64,000 nucleotides of DNA from Escherichia coli (GCA_022969815.1 GCA_022969815.1_4535.1), one strand, 5' to 3'. Positions 2,100 through 57,251 are shown, counted from the stretch's first letter. Notes: generated by a model not told the origin, from the sequence alone. Translations and numbers: made by a program.

Positions 2100-2364
2100 T
2101 TTTAAAATAAAAGATTCAAAACCCCAAGACGTAGCGGTTCGCTTCGAAGAGTTGGGGATTGGTGAAACTTTCATGTATTATTCAGCATACGAAGAAAATG
2201 GTTTGGATACATTTGCAAACTTAGTATTTCTTAAAAGCGGCGGCGCGACTGCTGTTTGTTTGAATAGTTCATCAAGAGGGAGTGTTCATACCGTATCCCC
2301 AGATGTGCCGATGGTTGCAGTTCGTTTAGTAGTTACCGATATTACACTTACAGAGGAGAAATAA
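2092..2364 (+). CDS. small protein, paralogue A of duplicated cassette (pairs with 3386..3667)
   Basis: N-terminus MFDFKIKDSKP and internal YSAYEENGLD match MLNFAIKKDSKP and KSAYDEDGLDP in the 3386 ORF. Confidence 0.55.
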   Translation: MFDFKIKDSKPQDVAVRFEELGIGETFMYYSAYEENGLDTFANLVFLKSGGATAVCLNSSSRGSVHTVSPDVPMVAVRLVVTDITLTEEK

Positions 2365-2365
2365 T

Positions 2366-3166
2366 ATGTCCAATAAAATTAGCCTGAAGAAACGCCAAGA
2401 CACCCTGACCATTTCACTGAAGAAAAAGAAAATCGTGAACGAAGATCAAAAGATCGTTCTGCGTGTTGCAAGTGCACTGGATATCTCCGGTAGCATGTCC
2501 AGCCTGTATCGTAACGGTACTGTAAGTGAGTTTGTTGGTAAGTTGCTTCCGTTTGGTATGCTGTTCGATGATAACGCGCAGATCGATATGTGGGCTTTCA
2601 ACAATAGCTCTCGTGAAATCACTCCAGCAACTGCTGATGTGTATGATGATTACGTTGGTAAATGCATTAATGGTCGTGTAACAGTCCAGGGTGGCACAAG
2701 CTATGCACCTGTTATGCAGGATATTTACGATTCCTACTTCGGTAGCACCACTAAATATGAAACTGTAGAAACTCCTGTAACCAAAGAAGTTCCTAAGAAA
2801 GGTTTCTTCAACCGTTTACTGGGTAAAACTGAAACTGTAGAAGCTGTTGTAGAAAAAACTGTAGCCGTTGCTGTGCCTGGTGTAGACGTTACTCCGGCAG
2901 TTGTGTTCTTCCAGACAGATGGTGAGAACGATGATCCGAGCCGTGTACTCTCCGTACTGGAAAAGAACAAGGGTAAACCTATCTACTGGTTCATGGTGGG
3001 TGTTGGTAGTGCTCGTTTCTCTTTCCTGAAAGATTTGGCTGAAGCTTACGACAACGTAGCATTCATTGGTCTGAACGATCTTTCCTTGACAGACGAGCAG
3101 CTTTACGATAAACTCTTGTCTGAAGAGTTCGGTGAGTGGGTCGAAAAGGTTGGTGCTAAGAAATGA
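2366..3166 (+). CDS. vWA-domain protein with TerD-like N-terminal tag (TerY-like)
   Basis: N-terminus MSNKISLKK...ISLKK nearly identical to the TerD ORF at 3683; DxSxS MIDAS-like motif (DISGSMSS) typical of von Willebrand A domains. Confidence 0.6.
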   Translation: MSNKISLKKRQDTLTISLKKKKIVNEDQKIVLRVASALDISGSMSSLYRNGTVSEFVGKLLPFGMLFDDNAQIDMWAFNNSSREITPATADVYDDYVGKCINGRVTVQGGTSYAPVMQDIYDSYFGSTTKYETVETPVTKEVPKKGFFNRLLGKTETVEAVVEKTVAVAVPGVDVTPAVVFFQTDGENDDPSRVLSVLEKNKGKPIYWFMVGVGSARFSFLKDLAEAYDNVAFIGLNDLSLTDEQLYDKLLSEEFGEWVEKVGAKK

Positions 3167-3405
3167 TCGACACGCTGATCTCTCAAACGGTGTTACAAGT
3201 GATGCGCGAGAGAGAAGCTTTCATCATGAAGGGTCTTAAAGATTACTTTGGGACTCTTTCTTTGGAAGAACTCAAGCTACGCGTTGAAATCCATCAGTAT
3301 CCTTTTTATGAAGAATGGATTGACAAAGCAAATAAAGCTGTTATAATGCGTATCAACAAACCAGAAATCACGACAGGAGGACAAGATGTTAAATTTCGCC
3401 ATTAA
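3163..3405 (+). CDS. hypothetical protein
   Basis: ORF overlapping upstream stop. Confidence 0.5.
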   Translation: MIDTLISQTVLQVMREREAFIMKGLKDYFGTLSLEELKLRVEIHQYPFYEEWIDKANKAVIMRINKPEITTGGQDVKFRH

Positions 3406-37156: not shown

Positions 37157-37523
37157 GAGGTCGTCACCAAGGTTCTCAAGGCTTTGATTTTAAAGGAGTT
37201 TTTGTTAGTAACTCCCCCAGTTCTAACTTCGAACTGCTGCAACTTTCATTGCAGGAAAGACTATATCTTCATCTACGTGAGATGCTTCGCACTTCGCCCC
37301 ACTTGGGGCTACTCTACTCGCTTCCGTATCACTACGTGCTTTCGATAGTCGTTGAACTTTACTCTCGGTGAGAGTCTTAGCTGCTGATTACCCATTGTAC
37401 CATCTTGACAATTTTCAAGCATTCACGCCTGGCGTTGCCGCCTACGTTGTAGCTTGTCAAGCTTTAGGGAGTTCCAGCAATTCACGAAGTTTTCATTACC
37501 TTATCGCTAAGGTACGGCCCCTG
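37157..37523 (-). ncRNA. group I self-splicing intron (compact, no ORF) interrupting the tape measure gene; boundaries approximate
   Basis: On the minus strand the four conserved core elements occur in order: P AATTGCTGGAA (plus 37472-37482), Q AATCAGCAG (37381-37389), R GTTCAACGACTAT (37345-37357), S AAGATATAGTC (37259-37269), with P/Q and R/S pairings; region has no ORF. Confidence 0.75.
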
Positions 37524-38690
37524 TTAAGAAAGGCGACCAATCTGTGCCGAGTTCATGCCACGACGCTCACCTTCATTCACAGTTGCCTGTATGAAAGCTA
37601 ATGGATCGTTCTGCATGTGTTTAATTTGTGAAGGGTTCCAACCGAACATGTTCATGATATCGTTGATACCGTTATCACCCCCACGCCATTTTCCTTTTTT
37701 CTCATCCCATTCAGCAGCCATCATCGAGTTACCCAAACGTTCACGAACGTCTTTAAGGTTATCGATTGACTTAATAATGTTTGCCGAGTCAACACCGTTC
37801 TGTTCACCCCAAGCAGTCATTGTCATAATGGCGTTAGCGTTTGCCTGAACGTTCTCTGCACCACGACCTATGAACTTGATACGATCGTTAGCAGTTTGTA
37901 ACGTATTACCTACAACAGAACCACCTGCAAACAGTCCTGCACCAATCATGGATGAAACCATCATGCGAGGATTAAGGCCCAAAGCGCCATCTCTCATTTG
38001 CGAGTATTGACGATCTTTATCTCGGCGTTGCTGTGCCAGTTCACGTTTATGGTTACGCTCAATATCACGTAGCTCTTTATCACGCATACGCTGACGTTGT
38101 TTGGCTTCTGCTTCCAATTCACGACGAACTCGACGACGACCACGTACTTCATCTTCGATATCTTTTACTTTCTCTCGGTGAGATCGACGAAGATTATCAA
38201 GCTGGTGGGCCAGTGTCTGGTTCATACGTTGAAGAGTGATATCTCCACGTTTGTACGATTCTACAGAAGCATCCATGATTTGTTTGGCTTGGCGTTGCGC
38301 ATCTAAGGAAGCTTTGGTATACTGCATACCACGCTTTTCAAAGTTCTCCATACGGAGATTGCCTAAATCATTACGACGAGCCTGTAGCTCGGCAGCGCGT
38401 TCTTCTGGAGTTTTCTTTCCTGGTTTAGCTGGACGACCAGGACCGGAGGTAGTTCCACCACCTTTTGGAGTAGGAGGGGGAGCAGGGCGAGCAGGGAAAG
38501 TCTGCGCTTTACGCATTTCTCTTTCGATCTCTTTCATCTGCTGCCTAAACTTACTCATGTTTAAGGTGGGCTGTATTCTTTCAGCGAACTTTTTAACACT
38601 CTCTACAGAATCTTTGGCTTCTTTGAGACTGTTCTTGTCCACCTTAAATGTGACTACGTTACTGATTTTAGCCGCGTTTATATCTAACAA
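37524..38690 (-). CDS. tail tape measure protein, N-terminal segment (5' exon; the annotated TAA stop is probably inside the intron)
   Basis: 388-aa charged coiled-coil protein rich in R/K/E/Q; located after tail tube and chaperone genes; too short alone for a tape measure. Confidence 0.55.
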   Translation of the reverse strand: MLDINAAKISNVVTFKVDKNSLKEAKDSVESVKKFAERIQPTLNMSKFRQQMKEIEREMRKAQTFPARPAPPPTPKGGGTTSGPGRPAKPGKKTPEERAAELQARRNDLGNLRMENFEKRGMQYTKASLDAQRQAKQIMDASVESYKRGDITLQRMNQTLAHQLDNLRRSHREKVKDIEDEVRGRRRVRRELEAEAKQRQRMRDKELRDIERNHKRELAQQRRDKDRQYSQMRDGALGLNPRMMVSSMIGAGLFAGGSVVGNTLQTANDRIKFIGRGAENVQANANAIMTMTAWGEQNGVDSANIIKSIDNLKDVRERLGNSMMAAEWDEKKGKWRGGDNGINDIMNMFGWNPSQIKHMQNDPLAFIQATVNEGERRGMNSAQIGRLS

Positions 38691-42534: not shown

Positions 42535-43023
42535 TTATTTTTTAGACTTGCCTTTTGTGATCTTCGAGTCTATCTCGTTAATCATGTGCCCTGTGTCAAT
42601 CAAAGTATGCGTAGAGTAATTCCCTTTATCACGACGAATCTTAATTGTCACCGGAGAAAGTGCTCTATATCGTTGGGAAGCTATTGCTCTTGCTATTCCT
42701 TCACGAGAAGCTTTCGCTATCGGCTCAAAAACTCCGAGTCCTTTATTTCGCATAAGGTATTGAACAAAAACATTCGGTAATAGCTTGGCTATCTCTTTAC
42801 TGGAAATCACAGCACCGTCAGTCATAAACGGACGGGCTGGAATATTATTTGTTTCGTTACCATATTGCTGGATAGCAGCTATCGCTGGAATAGTGAGATC
42901 TGATTCAGGGTGTCTCTTGTTTTCAAGGAAACCAGCTTCAATTTCCACATTCTCTAATACCATCATCTTTTTAATGATTGTATCCCAGTCTGTGTCTGTA
43001 CCTGGTAAGATCTCACTTTTCAT
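42535..43023 (-). CDS. head-tail joining protein
   Basis: Position. Confidence 0.4.
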   Translation of the reverse strand: MKSEILPGTDTDWDTIIKKMMVLENVEIEAGFLENKRHPESDLTIPAIAAIQQYGNETNNIPARPFMTDGAVISSKEIAKLLPNVFVQYLMRNKGLGVFEPIAKASREGIARAIASQRYRALSPVTIKIRRDKGNYSTHTLIDTGHMINEIDSKITKGKSKK

Positions 43024-43571
43024 TATTTGTCCCTACGATAATATGATACAGGTCCGTAGTTTCGCAGATAGTTTACGTTACGTGTTTTACGATCTACACT
43101 GGCAACATTACCTAAACCATTCACAGAGTTAGGATCGCTGTTGACACGATCGATTTCACGAGCATCTACACCGCCAATCAGAACACGACTTGTTGCACCA
43201 CGTCCAGCGGTACACCCTGGAATAACCATTAAGCCGTTCAGGTAGTTGTTGTAGATATCTTCCCAAGGAGATTTGTATTCTACTTGACCGTTACTAAATT
43301 TAACTTCTACTTCCACTTCGCCCATCTTTTCACGGCGGGACATTGCACCACCACTTTGACTGTTGTTATTTAAAACATCAGTGTTCCACAGGTATTCAAG
43401 AACAGAAATTAAACTGTTCCATAGAACAGCACACTTATTAGAGTCGGCGTTACCAATAATATCGATCCATGTCTGGATAATCTGAATCAACACTGCGTCT
43501 GGCAAAGTTTCTTGAGACGGATTATAAACAAGGATTCGAACCATTGGTGCCAATTCAGTAGCAATCAGCAT
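43023..43571 (-). CDS. head completion / adaptor protein
   Basis: Position. Confidence 0.4.
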   Translation of the reverse strand: MLIATELAPMVRILVYNPSQETLPDAVLIQIIQTWIDIIGNADSNKCAVLWNSLISVLEYLWNTDVLNNNSQSGGAMSRREKMGEVEVEVKFSNGQVEYKSPWEDIYNNYLNGLMVIPGCTAGRGATSRVLIGGVDAREIDRVNSDPNSVNGLGNVASVDRKTRNVNYLRNYGPVSYYRRDK

Positions 43572-52228: not shown

Positions 52229-53065
52229 TTAAGACAGTACAGAAGTAGGGGCTTCTAACCAAGTAAGGGAGATAACCACCCTGTTTGCATTTCCAGATGT
52301 GTTTATCAGTTCCATCCTAAAAGATCCACCTGCTGGTATTATCCTGTAACCAGAAGATACTGAACTAACTCCTGTTGCCCTGTTGTTCGGATTTGCACCA
52401 GAGGCTGGGATAAATGCAGGTATGAAGTACACAGTACCCACCGTAGGGTTTCCAGTTAAGGATCGAAATTGCGCAGCGGAGTTTGTTCCATATTTTAAGT
52501 TAACGTTCCTGTTAGCGTAAGAAGTACCGACTACACCTCCCGTAGAACCTGTGATAATTTTAGCTTCAAAACCTGTATAGAAAGGAGCAAAACTCCAATC
52601 TATAAAAGCACATTCTTTATCTGTAGGAGCCATAAACTCAAACCACTGTGTCACTCCTGATGGTAAACTAACATCTACCGTAAGTTGAAAAAGTCTACCT
52701 TCTATACTTGCAGCTTCTACTTGTGTCAATGTTTGTGTGAGGACTCTTGGATCTGACAAACCTGCAATTTTACGCATCGCGGCTTTTATATCAGTGTTTT
52801 CTGCCCTACGTATCGAAATCTTACCTGGTGCTGTACCCTCTGCTATTACAGAAGCAACGCCCCAGTTAGGCTGGATGAAAAAATCTTCATTAGGTTGTAA
52901 TAAGATGCAGTTTTTAACTTCAGACAGTGTTTCATTGTTTAAAGCTAAACGTATACCGACAGAGGATACGTTCTCTATGACATGTGCATATTTAGGATCT
53001 ACTTGAACTATGTCGAAAATGTTAGTCCATGCATTCGTCCCTATACCAGGTGCAATTATTTTCAT
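52229..53065 (-). CDS. hypothetical protein (start moved to the internal ATG with RBS)
   Basis: Minus-strand GGAG 8 nt before ATG at plus 53065; the track's 53125 start would overlap the terminator hairpin at 53075-53106. Confidence 0.5.
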   Translation of the reverse strand: MKIIAPGIGTNAWTNIFDIVQVDPKYAHVIENVSSVGIRLALNNETLSEVKNCILLQPNEDFFIQPNWGVASVIAEGTAPGKISIRRAENTDIKAAMRKIAGLSDPRVLTQTLTQVEAASIEGRLFQLTVDVSLPSGVTQWFEFMAPTDKECAFIDWSFAPFYTGFEAKIITGSTGGVVGTSYANRNVNLKYGTNSAAQFRSLTGNPTVGTVYFIPAFIPASGANPNNRATGVSSVSSGYRIIPAGGSFRMELINTSGNANRVVISLTWLEAPTSVLS

Positions 53066-53074
53066 TGGTATCTC

Positions 53075-53106
53075 CAAAATAAAAAGCCTCCACGAGGGAG
53101 GCTTGG
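53075..53106 (-). terminator. terminator hairpin (minus strand)
   Basis: minus-strand AGCCTCCCTCGTGGAGGCT followed by TTTTATTTT. Confidence 0.55.
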
Positions 53107-53185
53107 AATATGTTAGGGCTAACATGTGTCCCTAATGCTATTTTAACATTTTGGTATAAAAATGTCTTTAGGATAATTCTTAGAA

Positions 53186-53455
53186 TTAAGGTCGGTTAAT
53201 TACCTTAACAGTTTGTCCTTTGTCGTTCATCAGATAGGCTGATTCAGTTTTGTGAACAAAGATAACACGTTCACCTGCGATAACAGAGGCTACCACGCCA
53301 TCTGGTCGATCATAACCTTCCCAATGATACTGAATAATTACGTCATCCTCTAAGCAGTAAAAGAATTCTTCTTCATTTACATTGAAAGGGACGGTATTGT
53401 AAATCTTTACTTCATCTTCTTTAGAAAATTTACGGATTGTTTTTAACGTATACAT
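53186..53455 (-). CDS. hypothetical protein (start moved so as not to overlap tRNA genes)
   Basis: Track ORF 53186..53683 runs through two tRNA genes; internal ATG at plus 53455 has an AGGA RBS. Confidence 0.45.
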   Translation of the reverse strand: MYTLKTIRKFSKEDEVKIYNTVPFNVNEEEFFYCLEDDVIIQYHWEGYDRPDGVVASVIAGERVIFVHKTESAYLMNDKGQTVKVINRP

Positions 53456-53575
53456 GATTTGTCCTATTAAGTATTTAGTGTTTAGTGGGTTGTGCGTTTT
53501 AGGAGTCGCACCCCTCCCTCTTAGAAGGAACCAGGCAAGGTCTTCAAAGATACCGCTGGCGCGATATTTGGAGGC

Positions 53576-53654
53576 GGGAATCGGATTCGAACCGATGATC
53601 TCCAGCATATGAAACTGGCGAGGACGACCAAACTCCTCTATCCCGCTATTAGGT
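53576..53654 (-). tRNA. tRNA-Met (anticodon CAU), CCA encoded; A1/C72 mismatch suggests initiator or Ile2 identity
   Basis: Hand-folded cloverleaf: D-stem GAGG/CCTC, anticodon stem CCAGT/GCTGG, loop TTCATAT, T-arm ATCGG-TTCGAAT-CCGAT. Confidence 0.7.
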
Positions 53655-53660
53655 GTCCCG

Positions 53661-53729
53661 TGCTGGATTCGAACCAGCATCACAATAGTTGTGGATCTCT
53701 TATCCTGTAAGTCTAACGGGAAACTGGTT
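53661..53729 (-). tRNA. tRNA-like element, non-canonical (possible pseudo-tRNA)
   Basis: Intact T-arm (GCTGG-TTCGAAT-CCAGC) and 6/7 acceptor pairing, but I could not fold a canonical D-arm or a 5-7-5 anticodon arm; no encoded CCA. Confidence 0.35.
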
Positions 53730-53731
53730 GT

Positions 53732-53805
53732 TTCGACAAGAATCGAACTTGTATCTCACGATTATCAGTCGTGGGTTCTACCATTGAACTACGAAACATT
53801 TAATT
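53732..53805 (-). tRNA. tRNA-Ile (anticodon GAU), CCA encoded
   Basis: Acceptor TGTTTCG/CGAAACA, D-arm GTTC-AATGGTA-GAAC, anticodon arm CACGA-CTGATAA-TCGTG, T-loop TTCGATT. Confidence 0.75.
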
Positions 53806-53821
53806 GGTAGGAATTGCAGGA

Positions 53822-54163
53822 TTACCAAGTAACATCATGCCCTGAATGGAAAGCGCAATGACAGTTCTTACAGAGTAAGACGCAATTCTCTATCTCTTTG
53901 TCTATTCTTGCAAGTGACCAGCCACGCATAGATCCGTAGTTCTTATCTTTTATTGCTGGGTCAAGATGGTGAATATCCAAAGATTCTTCATACTGATTAA
54001 ATCCGCAAGCGGCGCACTTACCTCCTAACTTATCACGAGCATATTTTTTCTTATGTTGTCCAAGTTCTGTCGTATACTTATTATGACAGGCTCCACAAAT
54101 AGATTTCTTATGTCCGTAGAATTTCGTAGGATCTTCTTCGCCACAATGACTGCATTTACACAT
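53822..54163 (-). CDS. HNH homing endonuclease inserted in the tRNA cluster
   Basis: Cys-rich with HHLDP ... N ... LLCKNCH (HNH-type motif); sits between tRNA genes. Confidence 0.65.
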   Translation of the reverse strand: MCKCSHCGEEDPTKFYGHKKSICGACHNKYTTELGQHKKKYARDKLGGKCAACGFNQYEESLDIHHLDPAIKDKNYGSMRGWSLARIDKEIENCVLLCKNCHCAFHSGHDVTW

Positions 54164-54184
54164 ACAAAAAATCTCTTTACAAAT

Positions 54185-54260
54185 TGGTCAGCCTAAGAAG
54201 ACTTGAACTTCTAACCTCACCGCCCCAAACGGCGCACTCTTCCAATTGAGCTATAGGCTG
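54185..54260 (-). tRNA. tRNA-Pro (anticodon UGG), CCA encoded
   Basis: Acceptor CAGCCTA/TAGGCTG, anticodon arm CGCCG-TTTGGGG-CGGTG, T-loop TTCAAGT. Confidence 0.75.
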
Positions 54261-54460
54261 TTAATAAAAAATCTCACGTCTTATACAAGCTAACCTTTTG
54301 CCTGATGCATGAAATTTAAATACATTCTAAAGGTACACCGTAAAAGATTGTCGGGGCGATACTTCAAAAACATACCGATCCGTAGATCGATAATCAGACA
54401 AACTTCGACGGCTCCTCGTTTTTAACTTCACACTTAAGGTAGTGACTCACCTTTGTTATA

Positions 54461-54536
54461 TGGCTGGTCTGTCTGGATTTGAACCAAACCTACGACAGTC
54501 AAAGTGTCGTGTGCTACCGGACTACAATACAAACCA
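54461..54536 (-). tRNA. tRNA-Gln (anticodon UUG), CCA encoded
   Basis: Acceptor TGGTTTG/CAGACCA, anticodon arm CGACA-CTTTGAC-TGTCG, T-loop TTCAAAT; D-stem looks to be 3 bp. Confidence 0.65.
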
Positions 54537-54626
54537 TTTAATGAAGGGCAACCAGAAGAGGTGTGAGAGAAGGAGAAAACCATGAGTAAAAGAGAAAGTT
54601 TTCTGGCAACCCTTTATTAAATAATT

Positions 54627-54700
54627 TGGAGCGTTCTACGAGTTTCGAACTCGTGCCGCCGACTTGGAAGGACGGAATGCTACCGCTACACCAAGAACGC
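54627..54700 (-). tRNA. tRNA-Gly (anticodon UCC), CCA encoded
   Basis: Acceptor GCGTTCT/AGAACGC, anticodon loop CTTCCAA, T-loop TTCGAAA; one U-U mismatch in the anticodon stem. Confidence 0.65.
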
Positions 54701-55268
54701 CCTACATCTTTACTATACTACATTTTACTATCAGTTGTCAATAGTTTTATTGGGCGGGACAGTGACGAGTATCCCATTGGGTGACTAACCCTACGTTCGG
54801 TTGTGATTAATCTCCTGGGTGTCGCTTGCAACACTGGAAAACTCTCACGTCGATGGGAGAATCCGCTTCTTCTTTACCCCATCCAACCCTACTCCGGTCA
54901 AGTTTCAGGTGACTCTTTTTGTGATCAACACAATACTAAGAACACTGTCTTTCGAGCAGACCTTGTGCACAGGATACGACGATCAATCACAGTGCTCTTA
55001 ATGTTGTGCCACAATAATAAGAACATTCAAACGATGACCACTTTTAGTGGAGAGATTTACAAAATGCTCTTAATGTTGTGTTGTGAATACTAACCTCGGA
55101 ACTCATTACCGCGCTTTGGCTCGACCTTATTACAGGTTAGTGAATGTCTTTCGTCCGATTACATTCAATAAATTTGCTTTCTTCACAACGATAAGAACAC
55201 TTAACAGAAGATAGGTCTGATTGCCTCGGATGATTTCTCAGTAGCCTAAATGTTCTTACCTGTTATGT

Positions 55269-55344
55269 TGGTGCTCCAAGTAGGACTCGAACCTACGACC
55301 TCATGCTTACAAGGCAAGTGCTCTACCAACTGAGCTATTGAAGC
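55269..55344 (-). tRNA. tRNA-Thr (anticodon UGU), CCA encoded
   Basis: D-arm GCTC-AGTTGGTA-GAGC, anticodon loop CTTGTAA, T-arm GTAGG-TTCGAGT-CCTAC. Confidence 0.7.
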
Positions 55345-55696
55345 GTATTGCGCCCCTTCAGCCATGCTTGATGTTGACCAGAACACAGTTAAACTGTGGG
55401 AGGAGGAACACCGCAGGGGGCTTCAGTTGGACGACTTACAGGGAGCGACCCTGTTTCTTTTCTGGGACTCGGCAGGATTCGATACCTGCAATTCCAGAAG
55501 CCTCTTGGCAACTGAGGGTTTACCTTAACCCTACAAGTCCATAATTCTTAAATACTTTGGAGCCTTACTGATAAACCGTTAGTTTGTAACATAGCGTATT
55601 TCCATTCTGGGGCACCGCCTGTGAATGTAATTCCAATACAAACTTTCTCAAGATCAAACCAATTATCAAATAACATTACAACCTCCAGTTTGAATT

Positions 55697-55780
55697 TGGT
55701 GTGAGATGATGGATTCGAACCACCGCGCCTTTCAGAAGGGATTTACAGTCCCCCGCAATCGACCACTCTGCCAATCTCAC
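55697..55780 (-). tRNA. tRNA-Tyr (anticodon GUA), long variable arm, CCA encoded
   Basis: Acceptor GTGAGAT/ATCTCAC, anticodon arm GGGGA-CTGTAAA-TCCCT, 12-nt variable arm, T-loop TTCGAAT. Confidence 0.7.
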
Positions 55781-55904
55781 AAAATTGTTTTTAAAGTAGC
55801 CAGTATTCGCGGTACTGACTATGCGGTATCGGAGATGGTGAGAGCCATCTGCCGAAAGTTTACTCTGTTAAAGTAAGAAACAACAAGCTACATTAAAAAC
55901 AACT

Positions 55905-55990
55905 TGGCGGTAGATGTAGGACTCGAACCTACACGCCGTTTCCGACTACAGTTTAGCAAACTGTTGTGGCTACCATTTCACCAATCTACC
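55905..55990 (-). tRNA. tRNA-Ser (anticodon GCU), long variable arm, CCA encoded
   Basis: Acceptor GGTAGAT/ATCTACC, anticodon arm ACAGT-TTGCTAA-ACTGT, 15-nt variable arm, T-loop TTCGAGT. Confidence 0.7.
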
Positions 55991-55996
55991 TAAATT

Positions 55997-56086
55997 TGGA
56001 GGAAGGTAATGGAGTCGAACCATCACCGTATCTCTACAATGGGCCAGGGTTCAAATCTGGTTGCGTACCACTACGCCCTACCTTCC
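55997..56086 (-). tRNA. tRNA-Ser (anticodon UGA), long variable arm, CCA encoded
   Basis: Acceptor GGAAGGT/ACCTTCC, anticodon loop TTTGAAC with A31-C39 mismatch, long variable arm, T-loop TTCGACT. Confidence 0.6.
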
Positions 56087-56321
56087 ATACATTTAATCTA
56101 ACATAAAACGATGTTGATTGTCAACACCTTTTAAAACATTTTATTATGAATGGTGACTCCACCAACCCCCGTTCTCCACGAACGGTACTCTTCGAGCAAT
56201 CTACCCTTGCAATCAAACGTTGTACACCGTTAGCTTACTCATGCATATTTGCCTCATTCTCTGCCAACCATGATCAGTGGTAGGGTTCAAATCACTTGAG
56301 CTAATTCATACTAAAATGTTC

Positions 56322-56396
56322 TGGTGTCTTTACAAGGAATCGAACCTTGACTAAGAGTTTAGAAGACTCCTGTGCTATCCATTACACCATAAAGAC
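56322..56396 (-). tRNA. tRNA-Arg (anticodon UCU), CCA encoded
   Basis: Acceptor GTCTTTA/TAAAGAC, anticodon arm GGAGT-CTTCTAA-ACTCT, T-loop TTCGATT. Confidence 0.75.
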
Positions 56397-56398
56397 GT

Positions 56399-56473
56399 TG
56401 GTGGCCCTGACTGGTTTCGATCCAGTTGCCTATCGGTTATGAGCCGACTGCTCTCCCATTGAGCTACAGGGCC
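56399..56473 (-). tRNA. tRNA-Met or Ile2 (anticodon CAU), CCA encoded; unusual A at T-loop position 54
   Basis: Acceptor GGCCCTG/CAGGGCC, D-arm GCTC-AATGGGA-GAGC, anticodon arm GTCGG-CTCATAA-CCGAT, T-loop ATCGAAA. Confidence 0.65.
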
Positions 56474-56684
56474 GTAAATGTGGTAACAGAGACGTTGAAA
56501 GTAGTAGGAAGTAGCTACCATTCCTCGGACGTAAGCCCAACATTCAGCGTAAATGTTCTTGAGCCGAAGCTTTTCCATATGTTCTTTGGTAGCTAACCTC
56601 CGAACAAGTAGCCTCTAACATCTCCCCGATGCAAATCCGTCTTAACAACAGTCAACGACCCTGTTACCACACTTGATAAAGCGT

Positions 56685-56713
56685 ATCTTAACAAAATAAG
56701 ACACGCTTGTCAA
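56685..56713 (-). promoter_or_regulatory. sigma70-like promoter reading into the tRNA cluster (minus strand)
   Basis: minus-strand TTGACA (plus 56708-56713), 17-nt spacer, TAAGAT (plus 56685-56690), AT-rich UP-like region upstream. Confidence 0.45.
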
Positions 56714-56730
56714 TACTTATTTCAAATATT

Positions 56731-56979
56731 TTAGGCGTAATCTTGAACCTCTTCAGAGTCACGTTTTTCAAGTAGTGCTATAACAAGTGCTTCAGCATTT
56801 TGCCAAGAGTTCTCCAGGTCCATTTGACGCATAAGAGCCAGGAAATCGATAACTTTAACGTCCTCGTTGATGACGATCCTAACACCGTCTTCACTCTCGG
56901 TAACATACTTCTCTGGGTTGAACATGAAGATTGCTCCACCTTCACCGTCAGTCAACACATGTTTTTCTACTAAAGACAT
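56731..56979 (-). CDS. hypothetical protein
   Basis: ORF with minus-strand AGGAGG-type RBS. Confidence 0.45.
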   Translation of the reverse strand: MSLVEKHVLTDGEGGAIFMFNPEKYVTESEDGVRIVINEDVKVIDFLALMRQMDLENSWQNAEALVIALLEKRDSEEVQDYA

Positions 56980-56990
56980 ATTGATTCCTC

Positions 56991-57251
56991 CTAATCGATT
57001 GTTTGTTCGTCCTCCATTACATTAGAAATGAGAACGTCTGTTATACCTTGATGCTGATAGACCCTTTCGGGGCTGTCGTCAAATGCCAAGCCTGTACATA
57101 TCGAACAGAGATCTGACTCTTGAATAATTCCATTTTTATCACGTCTGGAATGGTTAGTCAAGTGTCTGTTACAAGCCCGACAACGAAAATAAAAATTGTT
57201 TTGCATAAATCCTTCGAACCCCAAAATGGGGAGTAATCGGCATCTCCTCAC
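56991..57251 (-). CDS. hypothetical zinc-ribbon protein
   Basis: CRACN ... CSIC motif; true start may be an internal Met. Confidence 0.4.
   Translation of the reverse strand: MRRCRLLPILGFEGFMQNNFYFRCRACNRHLTNHSRRDKNGIIQESDLCSICTGLAFDDSPERVYQHQGITDVLISNVMEDEQTID

What the first reader, a model, noticed from the sequence alone, without database searches (positions are those of the whole stretch)
53576..56473. tRNA cluster: 11 canonical tRNAs plus one degenerate tRNA-like element, with an HNH endonuclease embedded
All tRNAs are on the minus strand and all canonical ones encode their CCA. Anticodons read: Met/Ile2 CAU (two copies), Ile GAU, Pro UGG, Gln UUG, Gly UCC, Thr UGU, Tyr GUA, Ser GCU, Ser UGA, Arg UCU. 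One CAU tRNA has an A1/C72 mismatch and the other has A at T-loop position 54, so they are likely functionally distinct (initiator, elongator or lysidine-modified Ile2). Element 53661..53729 has a good T-arm and acceptor stem but no canonical D or anticodon arm and no CCA; it may be a pseudo-tRNA or a small structured RNA. An HNH endonuclease gene sits between tRNAs.
Basis: seen in the sequence. Interest (0 to 1): 0.45.

Follow-up and report, generated by a model that had tools for sequence, protein, structure and literature searches.

The report
Phage tRNA array with tRNA-like RNAs
This is the ordinary, already annotated tRNA gene array of a phAPEC8-like E. coli phage, but it also holds a mobile HNH nuclease cassette and two unannotated tRNA-shaped RNAs that cannot decode, one of which belongs to a conserved family found in five phage lineages.

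Summary
The window comes from a Phapecoctavirus (98% to phiWec188/190), whose relatives carry the same annotated array, so the cluster itself is known.

- **CAU tRNAs:** 56399-56473 is a tRNA-Ile2 (lysidine) type. 53569-53647 has initiator-like acceptor and D-stem marks but a non-initiator anticodon stem.
- **HNH gene (53822-54163):** it is a sporadic mobile insertion. It travels with its own tRNA-Pro allele and leaves a 19-nt 3' remnant of the displaced tRNA-Pro.
- **Degenerate element (TLE1):** it is real, but its correct coordinates are 53651-53722. It is a cloverleaf with a 3-nt loop in place of an anticodon loop.
  - It belongs to a discrete family in five phage lineages, with compensatory changes in three stems.
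  - It is more conserved between two myophage subfamilies than their same-anticodon tRNAs.
  - This argues for a selected, non-decoding tRNA-like RNA. Its role is inferred, not shown.
- **Second element (TLE2, 55463-55540):**
- **Spacers:** the long spacers fold into conserved stem-closed domains.

The parts
56685..56713 (-). sigma-70-like promoter P1 (TTGACA-17-TAAGAT, TG extended) ahead of the array
   Evidence: 10 of 12 matches; consensus match only
56474..56680 (-). structured leader closed by a ~22-bp stem just upstream of the first tRNA
   Evidence: -73.3 kcal/mol, z -5.4; inverted repeat I1
56399..56473 (-). tRNA(CAU) of the tRNA-Ile2 (lysidine) type, with T loop AUCGAAA (A54)
   Evidence: 66.2 bits. 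80% identical to E. coli prophage genes annotated tRNA-Ile with anticodon CAT next to Arg tRNAs. Has C4:G69 and C5:G68, the EcTilS identity pairs (PMC12514573)
56322..56396 (-). tRNA-Arg(UCU)
   Evidence: 66.3 bits; invariant in 8 relatives
56130..56321 (-). structured Arg-Ser spacer closed by a 17-bp stem
   Evidence: inverted repeat I3; fold z -2.4
56095..56124 (-). sigma-70-like promoter P2 (TTGACA-18-TAGATT)
   Evidence: both hexamers invariant in relatives while the spacer varies
55997..56086 (-). tRNA-Ser(UGA), long variable arm, U73
   Evidence: below the Rfam tRNA threshold; relatives carry a different allele in this slot
55905..55990 (-). tRNA-Ser(GCU)
   Evidence: 56.3 bits
55781..55904 (-). 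structured Ser-Tyr spacer: 17-bp closing stem around three hairpins
   Evidence: z -5.4; consensus fold kept in 6 phages with 4 compensatory pairs
55697..55780 (-). tRNA-Tyr(GUA)
   Evidence: 56.3 bits
55548..55676 (-). 42-aa ORF with a GGAGG ribosome-binding site inside the array
   Evidence: annotated as hypothetical protein in phiWec188, phiWec179 and PsgM04F; no Pfam or PHROG match
55463..55540 (-). TLE2: second tRNA-like cloverleaf. 7-bp acceptor stem, D arm, long arm with a 2x2 internal loop and a 4-nt loop, 8-nt T loop UAUCGAAU, no CCA
   Evidence: found with model R1; fold -32.4 kcal/mol, z -3.8; 92-99% conserved in 88 Phapecoctavirus records and unannotated in all but one of the 40 listed; sits as a tRNA-sized unit between Asn and Thr in phAPEC8
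55269..55344 (-). tRNA-Thr(UGU)
   Evidence: 73.7 bits
54712..54741 (-). sigma-70-like promoter P3 (TTGACA-18-TATAGT)
   Evidence: 11 of 12 matches
54627..54700 (-). tRNA-Gly(UCC)
   Evidence: 55.8 bits
54537..54626 (-). Gly-Gln spacer: ~19-bp closing stem with a CU-rich loop
   Evidence: z -4.0; 99.6% identical across 8 relatives
54461..54536 (-). tRNA-Gln(UUG)
   Evidence: 45.3 bits
54185..54260 (-). tRNA-Pro(UGG), the allele linked to the HNH gene
   Evidence: 83% identical to the tRNA-Pro of the other HNH-bearing phage DIJ07P2, but 63-68% to the alleles of HNH-less relatives
53822..54163 (-). free-standing HNH endonuclease gene (113 aa)
   Evidence: Pfam HNH; PHROG HNH; absent from 7 relatives where Pro and Ile lie 6 nt apart; an 81% identical homolog occupies the same slot in DIJ07P2
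53805..53823 (-). 3' remnant (AATCCTGCAATTCCTACCA) of a displaced phAPEC8-type tRNA-Pro; its first two bases overlap the HNH stop codon
   Evidence: 24 of 28 positions match the 3' end of phAPEC8 tRNA-Pro plus the Pro-Ile spacer
53725..53798 (-). tRNA-Ile(GAU)
   Evidence: 72.2 bits
53651..53722 (-). TLE1: non-decoding tRNA-like RNA. Acceptor stem with a U1/C72 mismatch, D arm, 5-bp hairpin with the 3-nt loop CUA, 2-nt 'variable' region AU, canonical T arm, tail ACCU
53569..53647 (-). tRNA(CAU) with initiator-like acceptor and D stems (A1/C72 mismatch, G2:C71, C3:G70, A11:U24) but no three G:C pairs in the anticodon stem, and U73
   Evidence: (50 bits); labelled 'tRNA-Pseudo-CAT' in the phAPEC8 record; related tRNA-Met genes in 296 phage records
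53186..53455 (-). 89-aa conserved hypothetical protein downstream of the array (phrog_8729)
53084..53104 (-). intrinsic-terminator-like hairpin plus T run that would end the transcription unit

Best explanation
SHOWN. This is the conserved tRNA gene array of a Phapecoctavirus (phAPEC8-like E. coli myophage). It holds eleven decoding tRNAs, six with U34 anticodons: Pro UGG, Gln UUG, Gly UCC, Thr UGU, Ser UGA and Arg UCU. There is also an Ile2-type CAU tRNA for AUA. These match A-ending codons that the phage uses heavily. A tRNA-Pro plus HNH cassette is inserted at the Pro-Ile junction and left a 19-nt stump of the previous tRNA-Pro. Two further units, TLE1 (53651-53722) and TLE2 (55463-55540), fold as cloverleaves but carry 3-nt and 4-nt loops where the anticodon loop should be, so they cannot decode. 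INFERRED. The array is transcribed from three sigma-70-type promoters as polycistronic precursors. RNase P and 3' exonucleases then cut these into tRNA-sized pieces. The long stem-closed spacers are removed by a double-strand-specific cut of the RNase III type. The HNH enzyme is a homing endonuclease that cuts HNH-less tRNA-Pro alleles in co-infecting relatives and spreads together with its own resistant tRNA-Pro allele. TLE1 is matured like a tRNA, by RNase P at U53722 and by trimming and CCA repair at the ACCU tail. It is kept by selection as a non-decoding tRNA-shaped RNA that works through its invariant upper half: the inner acceptor pairs C4:G69, C5:G68 and G6:C67, the D arm and the T arm. 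My preferred mechanism is a mimic that occupies a host or phage protein that recognises tRNA bodies. I put about 0.3 on that step. The composite claim, 'ordinary array plus mobile HNH cassette plus selected non-decoding tRNA-like RNA', gets the confidence given below.
For: Array and anticodons. Identity of the phage and the same annotated array in relatives. Codon use in 48 window ORFs: CCA 0.36, CAA 0.57, GGA 0.22, ACA 0.36, ATA 0.12, AGA 0.08. From my memory of E. coli usage tables, these are higher than in E. coli. Ile2 assignment. HNH: family matches; present in 2 of 10 compared genomes at the same slot; tRNA-Pro stump; HNH-linked tRNA-Pro allele 0.83 identical between the two HNH carriers against 0.63-0.70 to all others. 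TLE1 homologs share one odd architecture in Phapecoctavirus, Vequintavirinae, phiEB49, SonariX-type and KP8-type phages. On a structure-blind MAFFT alignment of 13 distinct sequences, 89% of cells pair. Nine pairs show compensatory change, against 4.5 +/- 1.4 in shuffles (0 of 500 reach it) and 0-2 in slid controls. Family members score 76-90 bits with model R1, while ordinary tRNAs score 55 bits or less and the best of 91 other viral loci scores 49. TLE1 is 0.77-0.81 identical between the two myophage subfamilies, against 0.58-0.71 for their same-anticodon tRNAs. Within the genus, TLE1 (0.972) and TLE2 (0.965) are as conserved as the conserved tRNAs and more than most spacers at 0.83-0.91. 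In three lineages TLE1 is the last unit of the array and encodes CCA, so there it is not merely a spacer. Spacer folds.
Against: No expression, processing or binding data exist for TLE1 or TLE2, and I found no paper describing them. The 13 TLE1 sequences come from only five lineages, so the covariation counts are few independent events. tRNA alleles in this array are often replaced (Pro, Thr, Tyr and Ser(UGA) are 0.63-0.83 identical within the genus). The 'more conserved than tRNAs' comparison may therefore compare non-orthologs, or reflect recent transfer of TLE1. No protein gene co-occurs with TLE1 in all five lineages, so no partner is indicated. TLE2 has almost no variation and no outside relatives, so its fold rests on thermodynamics alone. 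The total promoter count does not exceed the shuffles (8 against 7.9). RNase III cleavage and HNH target specificity are untested.
Confidence: 0.6

Rival explanations
1. TLE1 and TLE2 are decaying pseudo-tRNAs with no function. Their conservation reflects short divergence times and hitch-hiking with flanking tRNAs.
For: Both fail standard tRNA detection. Phapecoctavirus genomes are close, 92-100% identical in these elements. The Phapecoctavirus TLE1 tail has drifted from CCA to CCU or CAU. Other sub-threshold tRNA-like pieces occur in related arrays, and a plain tRNA-Pro stump lies beside the HNH gene, so tRNA debris does accumulate here.
Against: The same derived architecture persists in five lineages: shifted hairpin, 2-nt AU linker and invariant D and T arms. 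Compensatory changes keep the acceptor, hairpin and T stems paired. A neutral relic would not preserve hairpin pairing while its loop varies from 3 to 9 nt. TLE1 is more similar between subfamilies than the working tRNAs are.
Confidence: 0.2
2. TLE1 and TLE2 act only in cis as processing punctuation. Their tRNA shape gives RNase P a cleavage site that frees the 3' end of the upstream tRNA and the 5' end of the downstream one, and the excised piece is discarded.
For: TLE1 lies 2 nt after the CCA of tRNA-Ile and 3 nt before the next tRNA. In phAPEC8, TLE2 lies 7 and 5 nt from its neighbours. The conserved parts, acceptor stem plus T arm, are what RNase P needs (established knowledge of RNase P substrates). 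The loop is free to vary.
Against: Deleting the unit would serve processing equally well: Ile2 and Arg, and the two Ser tRNAs, abut with 2-6 nt. In phiEB49, SonariX-type and KP8-type phages TLE1 is the last unit, with nothing downstream to release, and it encodes CCA. The invariant D arm and the compensated hairpin are not needed for RNase P cleavage.
Confidence: 0.17
3. TLE1 is a working but unconventional decoding tRNA.
For: The phiEB49 homolog has a 7-nt loop and is called tRNA-Val(AAC) by ARAGORN and GenBank. The KP8 homolog is annotated tRNA-Leu. In SonariX-type copies the loop core CUUAAGA is conserved.
Against: The window's loop is 3 nt (CUA) and those of its relatives are 4-5 nt, which cannot present an anticodon. 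The loop sequence is not conserved between lineages. The hairpin is out of register with a canonical anticodon stem in every member, including phiEB49.
Confidence: 0.03

Closest known systems
Annotated tRNA arrays of Phapecoctavirus phages (phAPEC8, phiWec188/190, Schickermooser)
   Same: Same order, strand and anticodons. 98% identity to phiWec188/190 over 87% of the region.
   Different: The window carries the tRNA-Pro plus HNH cassette, which most relatives lack. Like phiWec188, it has Ser(UGA) and lacks the 86-nt 'tRNA-Asn' of phAPEC8. TLE1 is unannotated in all listed Phapecoctavirus records apart from a few spurious CDS calls, and TLE2 in all but one.
Phage T4 tRNA region: eight tRNAs, the small stable RNAs C and D of unknown function, and the SegB homing endonuclease gene
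   Same: A phage tRNA array that also encodes non-tRNA stable RNAs and a free-standing homing endonuclease. T4 RNAC and RNAD are still of unknown function (PMC9697503). SegB in the T4 tRNA region is from my own knowledge of the literature.
   Different: No sequence comparison with T4 RNAs C and D was made. SegB is a GIY-YIG enzyme, whereas this one is HNH. TLE1 and TLE2 are tRNA-sized cloverleaves rather than 120-140-nt RNAs.
Lambdoid or Stx prophage tRNA cluster ileZ-argN-argO of E. coli
   Same: An Ile2-type CAU tRNA directly followed by tRNA-Arg(UCU). The CAU tRNAs are 80% identical.
   Different: The prophage cluster has two Arg tRNAs (UCG and UCU) and a normal T loop. The phage copy has A54/A60 in the T loop.
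tRNA-like non-coding RNAs: the tRNA-like domain of tmRNA, the tRNA-like module of bacterial Y RNA (YrlA), and mascRNA
   Same: An acceptor and T-arm 'upper half' is kept without a decoding anticodon loop, and tRNA enzymes process them.
   Different: No Rfam match to YrlA or tmRNA in the window region, and only a 20.3-bit sub-threshold mascRNA match (E 1.1) that overlaps tRNA-Arg rather than TLE1 or TLE2; ARAGORN finds no tmRNA. TLE1 is a free-standing 72-78-nt cloverleaf with a short hairpin shifted 3 nt towards the 3' side.
Phage tRNAs that evade tRNA-targeting defences (anticodon-loop variants; the T5 tRNA that neutralises PARIS)
   Same: Phage-encoded tRNA-shaped RNAs whose proposed value lies in conflict with host tRNA nucleases rather than in codon supply (PMC10264068, PMC11464382; titles and abstracts).
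   Different: Those are decoding tRNAs with altered loops. TLE1 and TLE2 have no usable anticodon loop, and no link to any defence system has been tested.

Membership tests
Canonical tRNA (Rfam RF00005) - the 11 genes | Cloverleaf recognised by tRNA finders, with a 7-nt anticodon loop | tested here: met
   ARAGORN calls all 11. Rfam scores 10 of them at 45-74 bits against a gathering score of 29. Ser(UGA) is called by ARAGORN only.
Canonical tRNA (Rfam RF00005) - TLE1 53651-53722 | Score at or above the Rfam gathering threshold, or an ARAGORN call | tested here: not met
   21.3 bits against 29, E=0.5. No ARAGORN call.
Canonical tRNA - TLE1 | 7-nt anticodon loop on a 5-bp stem in canonical register, and a variable region of at least 4 nt | tested here: not met
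   3-nt loop CUA. The hairpin is preceded by 4 nt and followed by 2 nt (AU).
Canonical tRNA - TLE1 | 7-bp acceptor stem and a 5-bp T stem with a UUCGAAU loop | tested here: met
   Sequence and covariation. The 1:72 pair is U/C in the window.
Canonical tRNA - TLE2 55463-55540 | Detection by ARAGORN or the Rfam tRNA model, with a 7-nt anticodon loop and a 7-nt T loop | tested here: not met
   Not listed by either tool. It has a 4-nt loop and an 8-nt T loop.
tRNA-Ile2 (lysidine-dependent) - 56399-56473 | CAU anticodon plus the acceptor pairs C4:G69 and C5:G68 recognised by E. coli TilS | tested here: met
   Acceptor GGCCCUG/CAGGGCC. Identity elements as stated in PMC12514573.
tRNA-Ile2 - 56399-56473 | Closest cellular relatives are genes classified as tRNA-Ile with anticodon CAT | tested here: met
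   All 8 listed E. coli matches (36 records matched) are annotated tRNA-Ile, and the copy checked has anticodon CAT.
tRNA-Ile2 - 56399-56473 | C34 converted to lysidine, and charging with isoleucine | not testable with these tools
   Needs RNA mass spectrometry or charging assays.
Bacterial initiator tRNA - 53569-53647 | No Watson-Crick pair at 1:72, with G2:C71 and C3:G70 | tested here: met
   A1/C72, G2:C71 and C3:G70, aligned with E. coli metZ.
Bacterial initiator tRNA - 53569-53647 | A11:U24 in the D stem | tested here: met
   D stem GAGG/CCUC. That this pair marks initiators is from my own knowledge.
Bacterial initiator tRNA - 53569-53647 | Three consecutive G:C pairs, 29-31 with 39-41, in the anticodon stem | tested here: not met
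   The stem is CCAGU/GCUGG, giving A29:U41, G30:C40 and U31/G39, whereas metZ has GGG/CCC. I therefore do not file it as an initiator.
HNH homing endonuclease | HNH nuclease domain | tested here: met
   PF01844 at 24.3 bits (cut-off 21.4) and PF13391 at 23.7 bits (cut-off 21). phrog_2255 at E 1.6e-23.
HNH homing endonuclease | Free-standing gene present sporadically at one locus among close relatives, with flanking co-conversion marks | tested here: met
   Present in the window and DIJ07P2 and absent in 8 relatives at the same Pro-Ile junction. There is a tRNA-Pro stump and a linked tRNA-Pro allele.
HNH homing endonuclease | Cleaves the HNH-less allele and is preferentially inherited in mixed infection | not testable with these tools
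   Needs enzyme assays and phage crosses.
Y RNA-like (YrlA) and tmRNA | Match to the Rfam or ARAGORN models | tested here: not met
   No match to these families in 53000-57000 at E up to 10. ARAGORN finds no tmRNA.
T4 stable RNAs C and D | Sequence or structure similarity to rnaC or rnaD | not tested
   No T4 sequence was fetched. The resemblance is one of genomic context only.

The most novel reading that the evidence does not exclude
TLE1 defines a new family of phage-encoded tRNA mimics. It is a tRNA body with its decoding loop removed, spread horizontally among at least five lineages of enterobacterial phages. It would work by occupying a protein that reads the tRNA upper half. That protein could be a tRNA-targeting defence nuclease or transferase, or a host tRNA enzyme such as TilS, whose acceptor-stem identity pairs C4:G69 and C5:G68 are invariant in all 13 family members.
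Probability: 0.2. Interest if true: 0.75.

Novelty: new variant of a known kind. Interest (0 to 1): 0.4.

Why it matters
The array itself adds nothing new. Phage tRNA clusters with embedded homing endonucleases are well known, and this one is annotated in close relatives. The HNH and tRNA-Pro cassette with its leftover stump is a clean natural example of how homing endonucleases drive tRNA allele turnover in phages.

The point worth following is TLE1. It is a tRNA-shaped RNA that has lost the ability to decode. Even so, it keeps its stems by compensatory change in five phage lineages and is not in Rfam. If it is expressed, it offers a direct handle on an old question: why phages carry tRNA-like genes that codon supply cannot explain.

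Tried and rejected
- **Extra T-arm motif:** an exact GGTTCGAATCC at 43532-43542(-) looked like another tRNA-like element, but it lies inside the ORF 43023-43571 and has no cloverleaf. I treat it as chance.
- **Pattern scans:** scans of IMG/VR with loose D-arm and T-arm patterns returned about 200 loci. All but five were ordinary tRNAs or chance hits. One metagenome scan added only three copies, and one GTDB genome scan added none. The family is therefore narrow and I found none in cellular genomes.
- **Partner protein:** I looked for a protein gene shared next to TLE1 in all five lineages and found none. Only SonariX-type and KP8-type phages share DUF7740 and gp49/66-family genes.
- **TLE2 relatives:** model R2 built from TLE2 found no relative outside Phapecoctavirus, and blastn found none either.
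- **Known RNA families:** the Rfam scan at E up to 10 gave no known family for TLE1, TLE2 or the spacers beyond the weak tRNA match.
- **Literature:** searches for a described phage tRNA-like RNA without an anticodon loop found nothing specific.
- **Initiator assignment:** I considered filing the 53647 CAU tRNA as an initiator. I rejected this because the three G:C anticodon-stem pairs are missing.
- **Aminoacylation by an acceptor-reading synthetase:** this looks unlikely to be conserved, because pairs 1:72, 2:71 and 3:70 and position 73 all vary between lineages.

Full report
**1. Check of the observation**

- ARAGORN on the whole window returns 11 tRNA genes, all on the minus strand between 53569 and 56473.
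- Rfam's tRNA model confirms ten of them at 45-74 bits, against a gathering score of 29.
- The 90-nt Ser(UGA) gene appears only as a sub-threshold tRNA-Sec match of 32.4 bits, which is not unusual for a long-arm tRNA.
- Reading the minus strand shows that every gene ends in an encoded CCA.
- The 53647 CAU tRNA has A1 opposite C72. The 56473 CAU tRNA has the T loop AUCGAAA, that is, A54.
- The ORF 53822-54163(-) matches Pfam HNH and HNH_2 above their cut-offs and PHROG HNH families.
Rfam's tRNA model aligns 53654-53722 at 21.3 bits (E 0.5, below threshold). My family model gives 53651-53722.

**2. What the region is**

- The 3.7-kb region is 98% identical to Escherichia phages phiWec188 and phiWec190. 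It is 85-91% identical in pieces to phAPEC8 and many other Phapecoctavirus genomes (Stephanstirmvirinae).
- Their GenBank records annotate the same array in the same order. The tRNA cluster as such is therefore known.
- Three of the best sigma-70-type promoter matches in the region lie on the minus strand directly upstream of tRNA blocks: 56713-56685, 56124-56095 and 54741-54712.
- For the middle promoter, the two hexamers are invariant in relatives while the spacer between them varies.
- A terminator-like hairpin follows the 89-aa ORF downstream of the array, at 53104-53084.
- In 48 long ORFs of the window, the A-ending codons read by the U34 tRNAs are common: CCA 0.36, CAA 0.57, GGA 0.22, ACA 0.36. 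This fits the usual codon-supply explanation. The comparison with E. coli usage is from my memory of published tables.

**3. The two CAU tRNAs**

*The 56399-56473 gene is an Ile2 type.*
- Its only matches in 5,426 complete E. coli genomes are in 36 genomes. All eight listed matches are genes annotated tRNA-Ile, at about 80% identity.
- The copy I examined has anticodon CAT and sits in a prophage-type cluster next to tRNA-Arg(UCG) and tRNA-Arg(UCU).
- The acceptor stem and the anticodon stem-loop are nearly identical to that gene.
- It carries C4:G69 and C5:G68, the dominant identity pairs for E. coli TilS (PMC12514573).
- It is followed 2 nt later by tRNA-Arg(UCU), as in the prophage cluster.
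- I therefore read it as a lysidine-dependent tRNA-Ile2 for AUA.

*The 53569-53647 gene is initiator-like but not an initiator.*
- It has no E. coli relative.
- Aligned with E. coli metZ, it shares the unpaired 1:72 position, G2:C71 to G6:C67, the GAG D stem with A11:U24, and the UCGG T stem.
- It lacks the three G:C pairs of the initiator anticodon stem and has U73.
- The phAPEC8 record labels it 'tRNA-Pseudo-CAT'.
- Related tRNA-Met genes occur in 296 phage records from many genera.
- It is initiator-like at the top and not at the bottom, so I do not file it as an initiator.

**4. The HNH cassette**

- In phiWec188, phAPEC8 and five other relatives, tRNA-Pro and tRNA-Ile are 6 nt apart. The window has 386 nt there.
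- The two bases AA that end the HNH stop codon TAA are followed by TCCTGCAATTCCTACCA and then ATTAAA. Read from that AA onward, this is the 3' end of a phAPEC8-type tRNA-Pro plus the normal Pro-Ile spacer. It matches phAPEC8 at 24 of 28 positions, against 13 of 28 for the window's own tRNA-Pro.
- Phapecoctavirus DIJ07P2 has an 81% identical 113-aa HNH gene in the same slot.
- The tRNA-Pro genes of the two HNH carriers are 0.83 identical to each other. They are only 0.63-0.70 identical to the three alleles found in HNH-less phages.
- So the HNH gene and a particular tRNA-Pro allele travel together. They have overwritten a resident tRNA-Pro from within its T loop.
- This is the pattern expected of a homing endonuclease with a linked cleavage-resistant target. 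The target specificity itself is inferred.

**5. TLE1 (53651-53722)**

*Structure.*
- It lies 2 nt after the CCA of tRNA-Ile and 3 nt before the next tRNA.
- It folds into a cloverleaf: acceptor stem UUCCCGU/ACGGGAC with a U1/C72 mismatch, then UA, then a D arm.
- The D arm can be read as G-A-C-U/A-G-A-G or as the invariant CUUA/UAAG, with GG in the loop.
- Four unpaired bases follow, then a 5-bp hairpin CACAA-CUA-UUGUG, two bases (AU), a canonical T arm GCUGG-UUCGAAU-CCAGC, and the tail ACCU.

*Distribution.*
- The Ile-Met spacer that holds it is conserved at 94-100% identity in most of the 87 phage records matched, nearly all of them Phapecoctavirus. It is not annotated in the listed Phapecoctavirus records, apart from a few spurious CDS calls.
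- Homologs exist elsewhere:
  - in Vequintavirinae (A7_1, W70, UPEC06, LTH01, A73), directly after tRNA-Tyr;
  - in the Drexlerviridae phage phiEB49, where it is annotated tRNA-Val(AAC);
  - in the jumbo phage SonariX and three IMG/VR contigs;
  - in the Schitoviridae phage KP8, where it is annotated tRNA-Leu.
- A metagenome scan added three copies and a GTDB genome scan added none.

*Shared architecture.*
- All members share the same departures from a tRNA. The hairpin sits 3 nt too far to the 3' side, with 4 nt before it and 2 nt, 'AU', after it.
- The loop is 3, 4, 5, 7, 8 or 9 nt, depending on the lineage.
- The Rfam tRNA model scores the family at 33, 25 and 21 bits, or not at all. Real tRNAs in the same loci score 55-66 bits.

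**6. Is TLE1 under selection?**

- I used a MAFFT alignment of the 13 distinct sequences, made without structural information. On it, 89% of cells pair in the proposed structure.
- Nine of the 21 pairs show changes on both sides that keep pairing: four in the acceptor stem, three in the hairpin and two in the T stem.
- The shuffled controls give 4.5 +/- 1.4 such pairs, and 0 of 500 reach nine. The slid controls give 0-2.
- The D arm, the T arm and the inner acceptor pairs C4:G69, C5:G68 and G6:C67 never vary.
- A covariance model built from this alignment scores members at 76-90 bits. Ordinary tRNAs score 55 bits or less, and nothing in 91 further viral loci exceeds 49 bits. The family is therefore discrete.
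- Between Phapecoctavirus and Vequintavirinae, TLE1 is 0.77-0.81 identical. Their tRNAs with the same anticodon are 0.58-0.71 identical.
- Within the genus, TLE1 is as conserved as the conserved tRNAs (0.972). Most spacers are 0.83-0.91.
- In phiEB49, SonariX-type and KP8-type phages the element is the last unit of the array and encodes CCA. There it cannot be merely a spacer for a downstream tRNA.
- Together these results disfavour a neutral pseudogene and a purely cis-acting role, though neither is excluded.
- Caveats: there are only five lineages. tRNA alleles in these arrays are often replaced, so the comparison may involve non-orthologs. Horizontal transfer of TLE1 could also inflate its similarity.

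**7. Likely mechanism of TLE1**

- Shown: the RNA would fold as a tRNA-like cloverleaf. It cannot present an anticodon in the window. It is constrained in its upper half and in the mere existence of the hairpin.
- Inferred: RNase P cuts at its 5' end. The 3' tail is trimmed and completed to CCA. The product acts through the acceptor, T and D 'elbow' half.
- I favour a mimic that occupies a tRNA-body-binding protein, at about 0.3.
- Pairs 1:72, 2:71 and 3:70 and position 73 vary, which argues against conserved charging by an acceptor-reading synthetase.
- The invariant C4:G69 and C5:G68 pairs are the TilS identity pairs. This is a lead, not a test.
- No neighbouring protein is shared by all five lineages, and I found no paper describing the element.

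**8.

- The TLE1 model picked up a weak hit (18.2 bits) that recurs at the same place in every relative.
- It folds as a cloverleaf of 78 nt:
  - a 7-bp acceptor stem GGACUUG/CGAGUCC;
  - a D arm with GG;
  - a long arm CAG-UU-GCC-AAGA-GGC-UU-CUG;
  - a 5-nt variable region;
  - a T arm with the 8-nt loop UAUCGAAU;
  - no CCA.
- The fold has -32.4 kcal/mol and z -3.8.
- In phAPEC8 it is packed between tRNA-Asn and tRNA-Thr like any other tRNA unit.
- It is 92-99% identical in 88 Phapecoctavirus records and is unannotated in all but one of the 40 listed. It has no relative outside the genus by blastn or by a dedicated covariance model.
- With so little variation, its structure cannot be tested by covariation.

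**9. The spacers**

Four long non-coding stretches are closed by long stems that bring the flanking tRNAs together:

| Stretch | Coordinates | Evidence |
|---|---|---|
| Leader | 56474-56680 | z -5.4 |
| Arg-Ser spacer | 56130-56321 | z -2.4 |
| Ser-Tyr spacer | 55781-55904 | z -5.4; fold kept in six phages with four compensatory pairs |
| Gly-Gln spacer | 54537-54626 | z -4.0; 99.6% identical in eight relatives |

I read these as processing domains, cut by a double-strand-specific nuclease of the RNase III type. This is inference only. They could equally be small RNAs in their own right.

**10. Verdict**

- The finding is correct and its interpretation is sound.
- The array is ordinary and already annotated in relatives. 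The HNH gene is a typical mobile endonuclease, caught here with clear marks of its insertion.
- The part that goes beyond the known is the pair of non-decoding tRNA-like units. The more notable is TLE1, a discrete, covarying family shared by five phage lineages and absent from Rfam.
- I rate the whole as a new variant of a known kind, of moderate interest.

Noticed in passing
window 37237-37540 (-): Group I catalytic intron: Rfam RF00028 at 84.6 bits (gathering score 50), full-length match.
   Followed up: no
window 52229-53125 (-): A 298-aa ORF lies in a stretch about 830 bp longer than in phiWec188, between the conserved 96-aa ORF and the tRNA array. The only match is a weak one to phrog_5335, of unknown function.
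   Followed up: partly
window 55548-55676 (-): A 42-aa ORF with a strong GGAGG ribosome-binding site sits inside the tRNA array, in the slot where phAPEC8 has its 86-nt 'tRNA-Asn'. No family match.
   Followed up: partly
window 55345-55462 (-): A 118-nt insertion between TLE2 and tRNA-Thr is present only in the window, phiWec188 and PsgM04F (coverage 0.28). It folds at -38.4 kcal/mol, z -2.2. tRNA-Thr next to it is also a divergent allele (0.69 identity to relatives).
   Followed up: partly
window 54701-55268 (-): The 568-nt Thr-Gly spacer has no credible ORF. It contains repeated motifs (GTTCTTAT..TTGTG and ACATTAAGAGCA; families D4, D5, D7 and I4), and its length varies among relatives from 316 to 568 nt.
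   Followed up: no
L002 2717-2802 (phAPEC8), also L012, L013, L014: An 86-nt 'tRNA-Asn(GUU)' with a long variable arm. That is a type II body normally seen only in Leu, Ser and Tyr tRNAs of bacteria, so its identity is doubtful.
   Followed up: no
L002 about 3110-3200 (-); same slot in L011 and L012: In phAPEC8-type relatives the slot of the window's tRNA-Ser(UGA) holds a different long-arm allele with anticodon loop CUUGAAA. ARAGORN does not call it.
   Followed up: partly
L012 about 2123-2209 (-) (Schickermooser): A tRNA-Tyr-like sequence (loop CUGUAAA, ending in CCA) that neither ARAGORN nor the GenBank record calls.
   Followed up: no
L004 1942-2020 (+) (phage A7_1) and L009 1655-1757 (+) (phage KP8): Further marginal tRNA-related matches inside other phage arrays. 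One is a 33.9-bit Rfam tRNA hit that ARAGORN does not call. The other is a 33.2-bit sub-threshold 'permuted tmRNA' hit.
   Followed up: no
L008 1719-1964 and 2316-2684; L009 912-1157: SonariX-type and KP8-type phages share DUF7740 and N4 gp49/Sf6 gp66-family proteins next to their tRNA arrays. This suggests a shared mobile module carrying the array and TLE1.
   Followed up: partly
window 43532-43542 (-): An exact T-arm 11-mer GGTTCGAATCC lies inside the coding ORF 43023-43571. I judge it coincidental.
   Followed up: yes
P0001: The HNH protein is on record with 100% identity on a single 151,297-bp contig labelled 'Escherichia coli'. The source genome of this window is therefore probably deposited as a bacterial, not a phage, record.
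   Followed up: no
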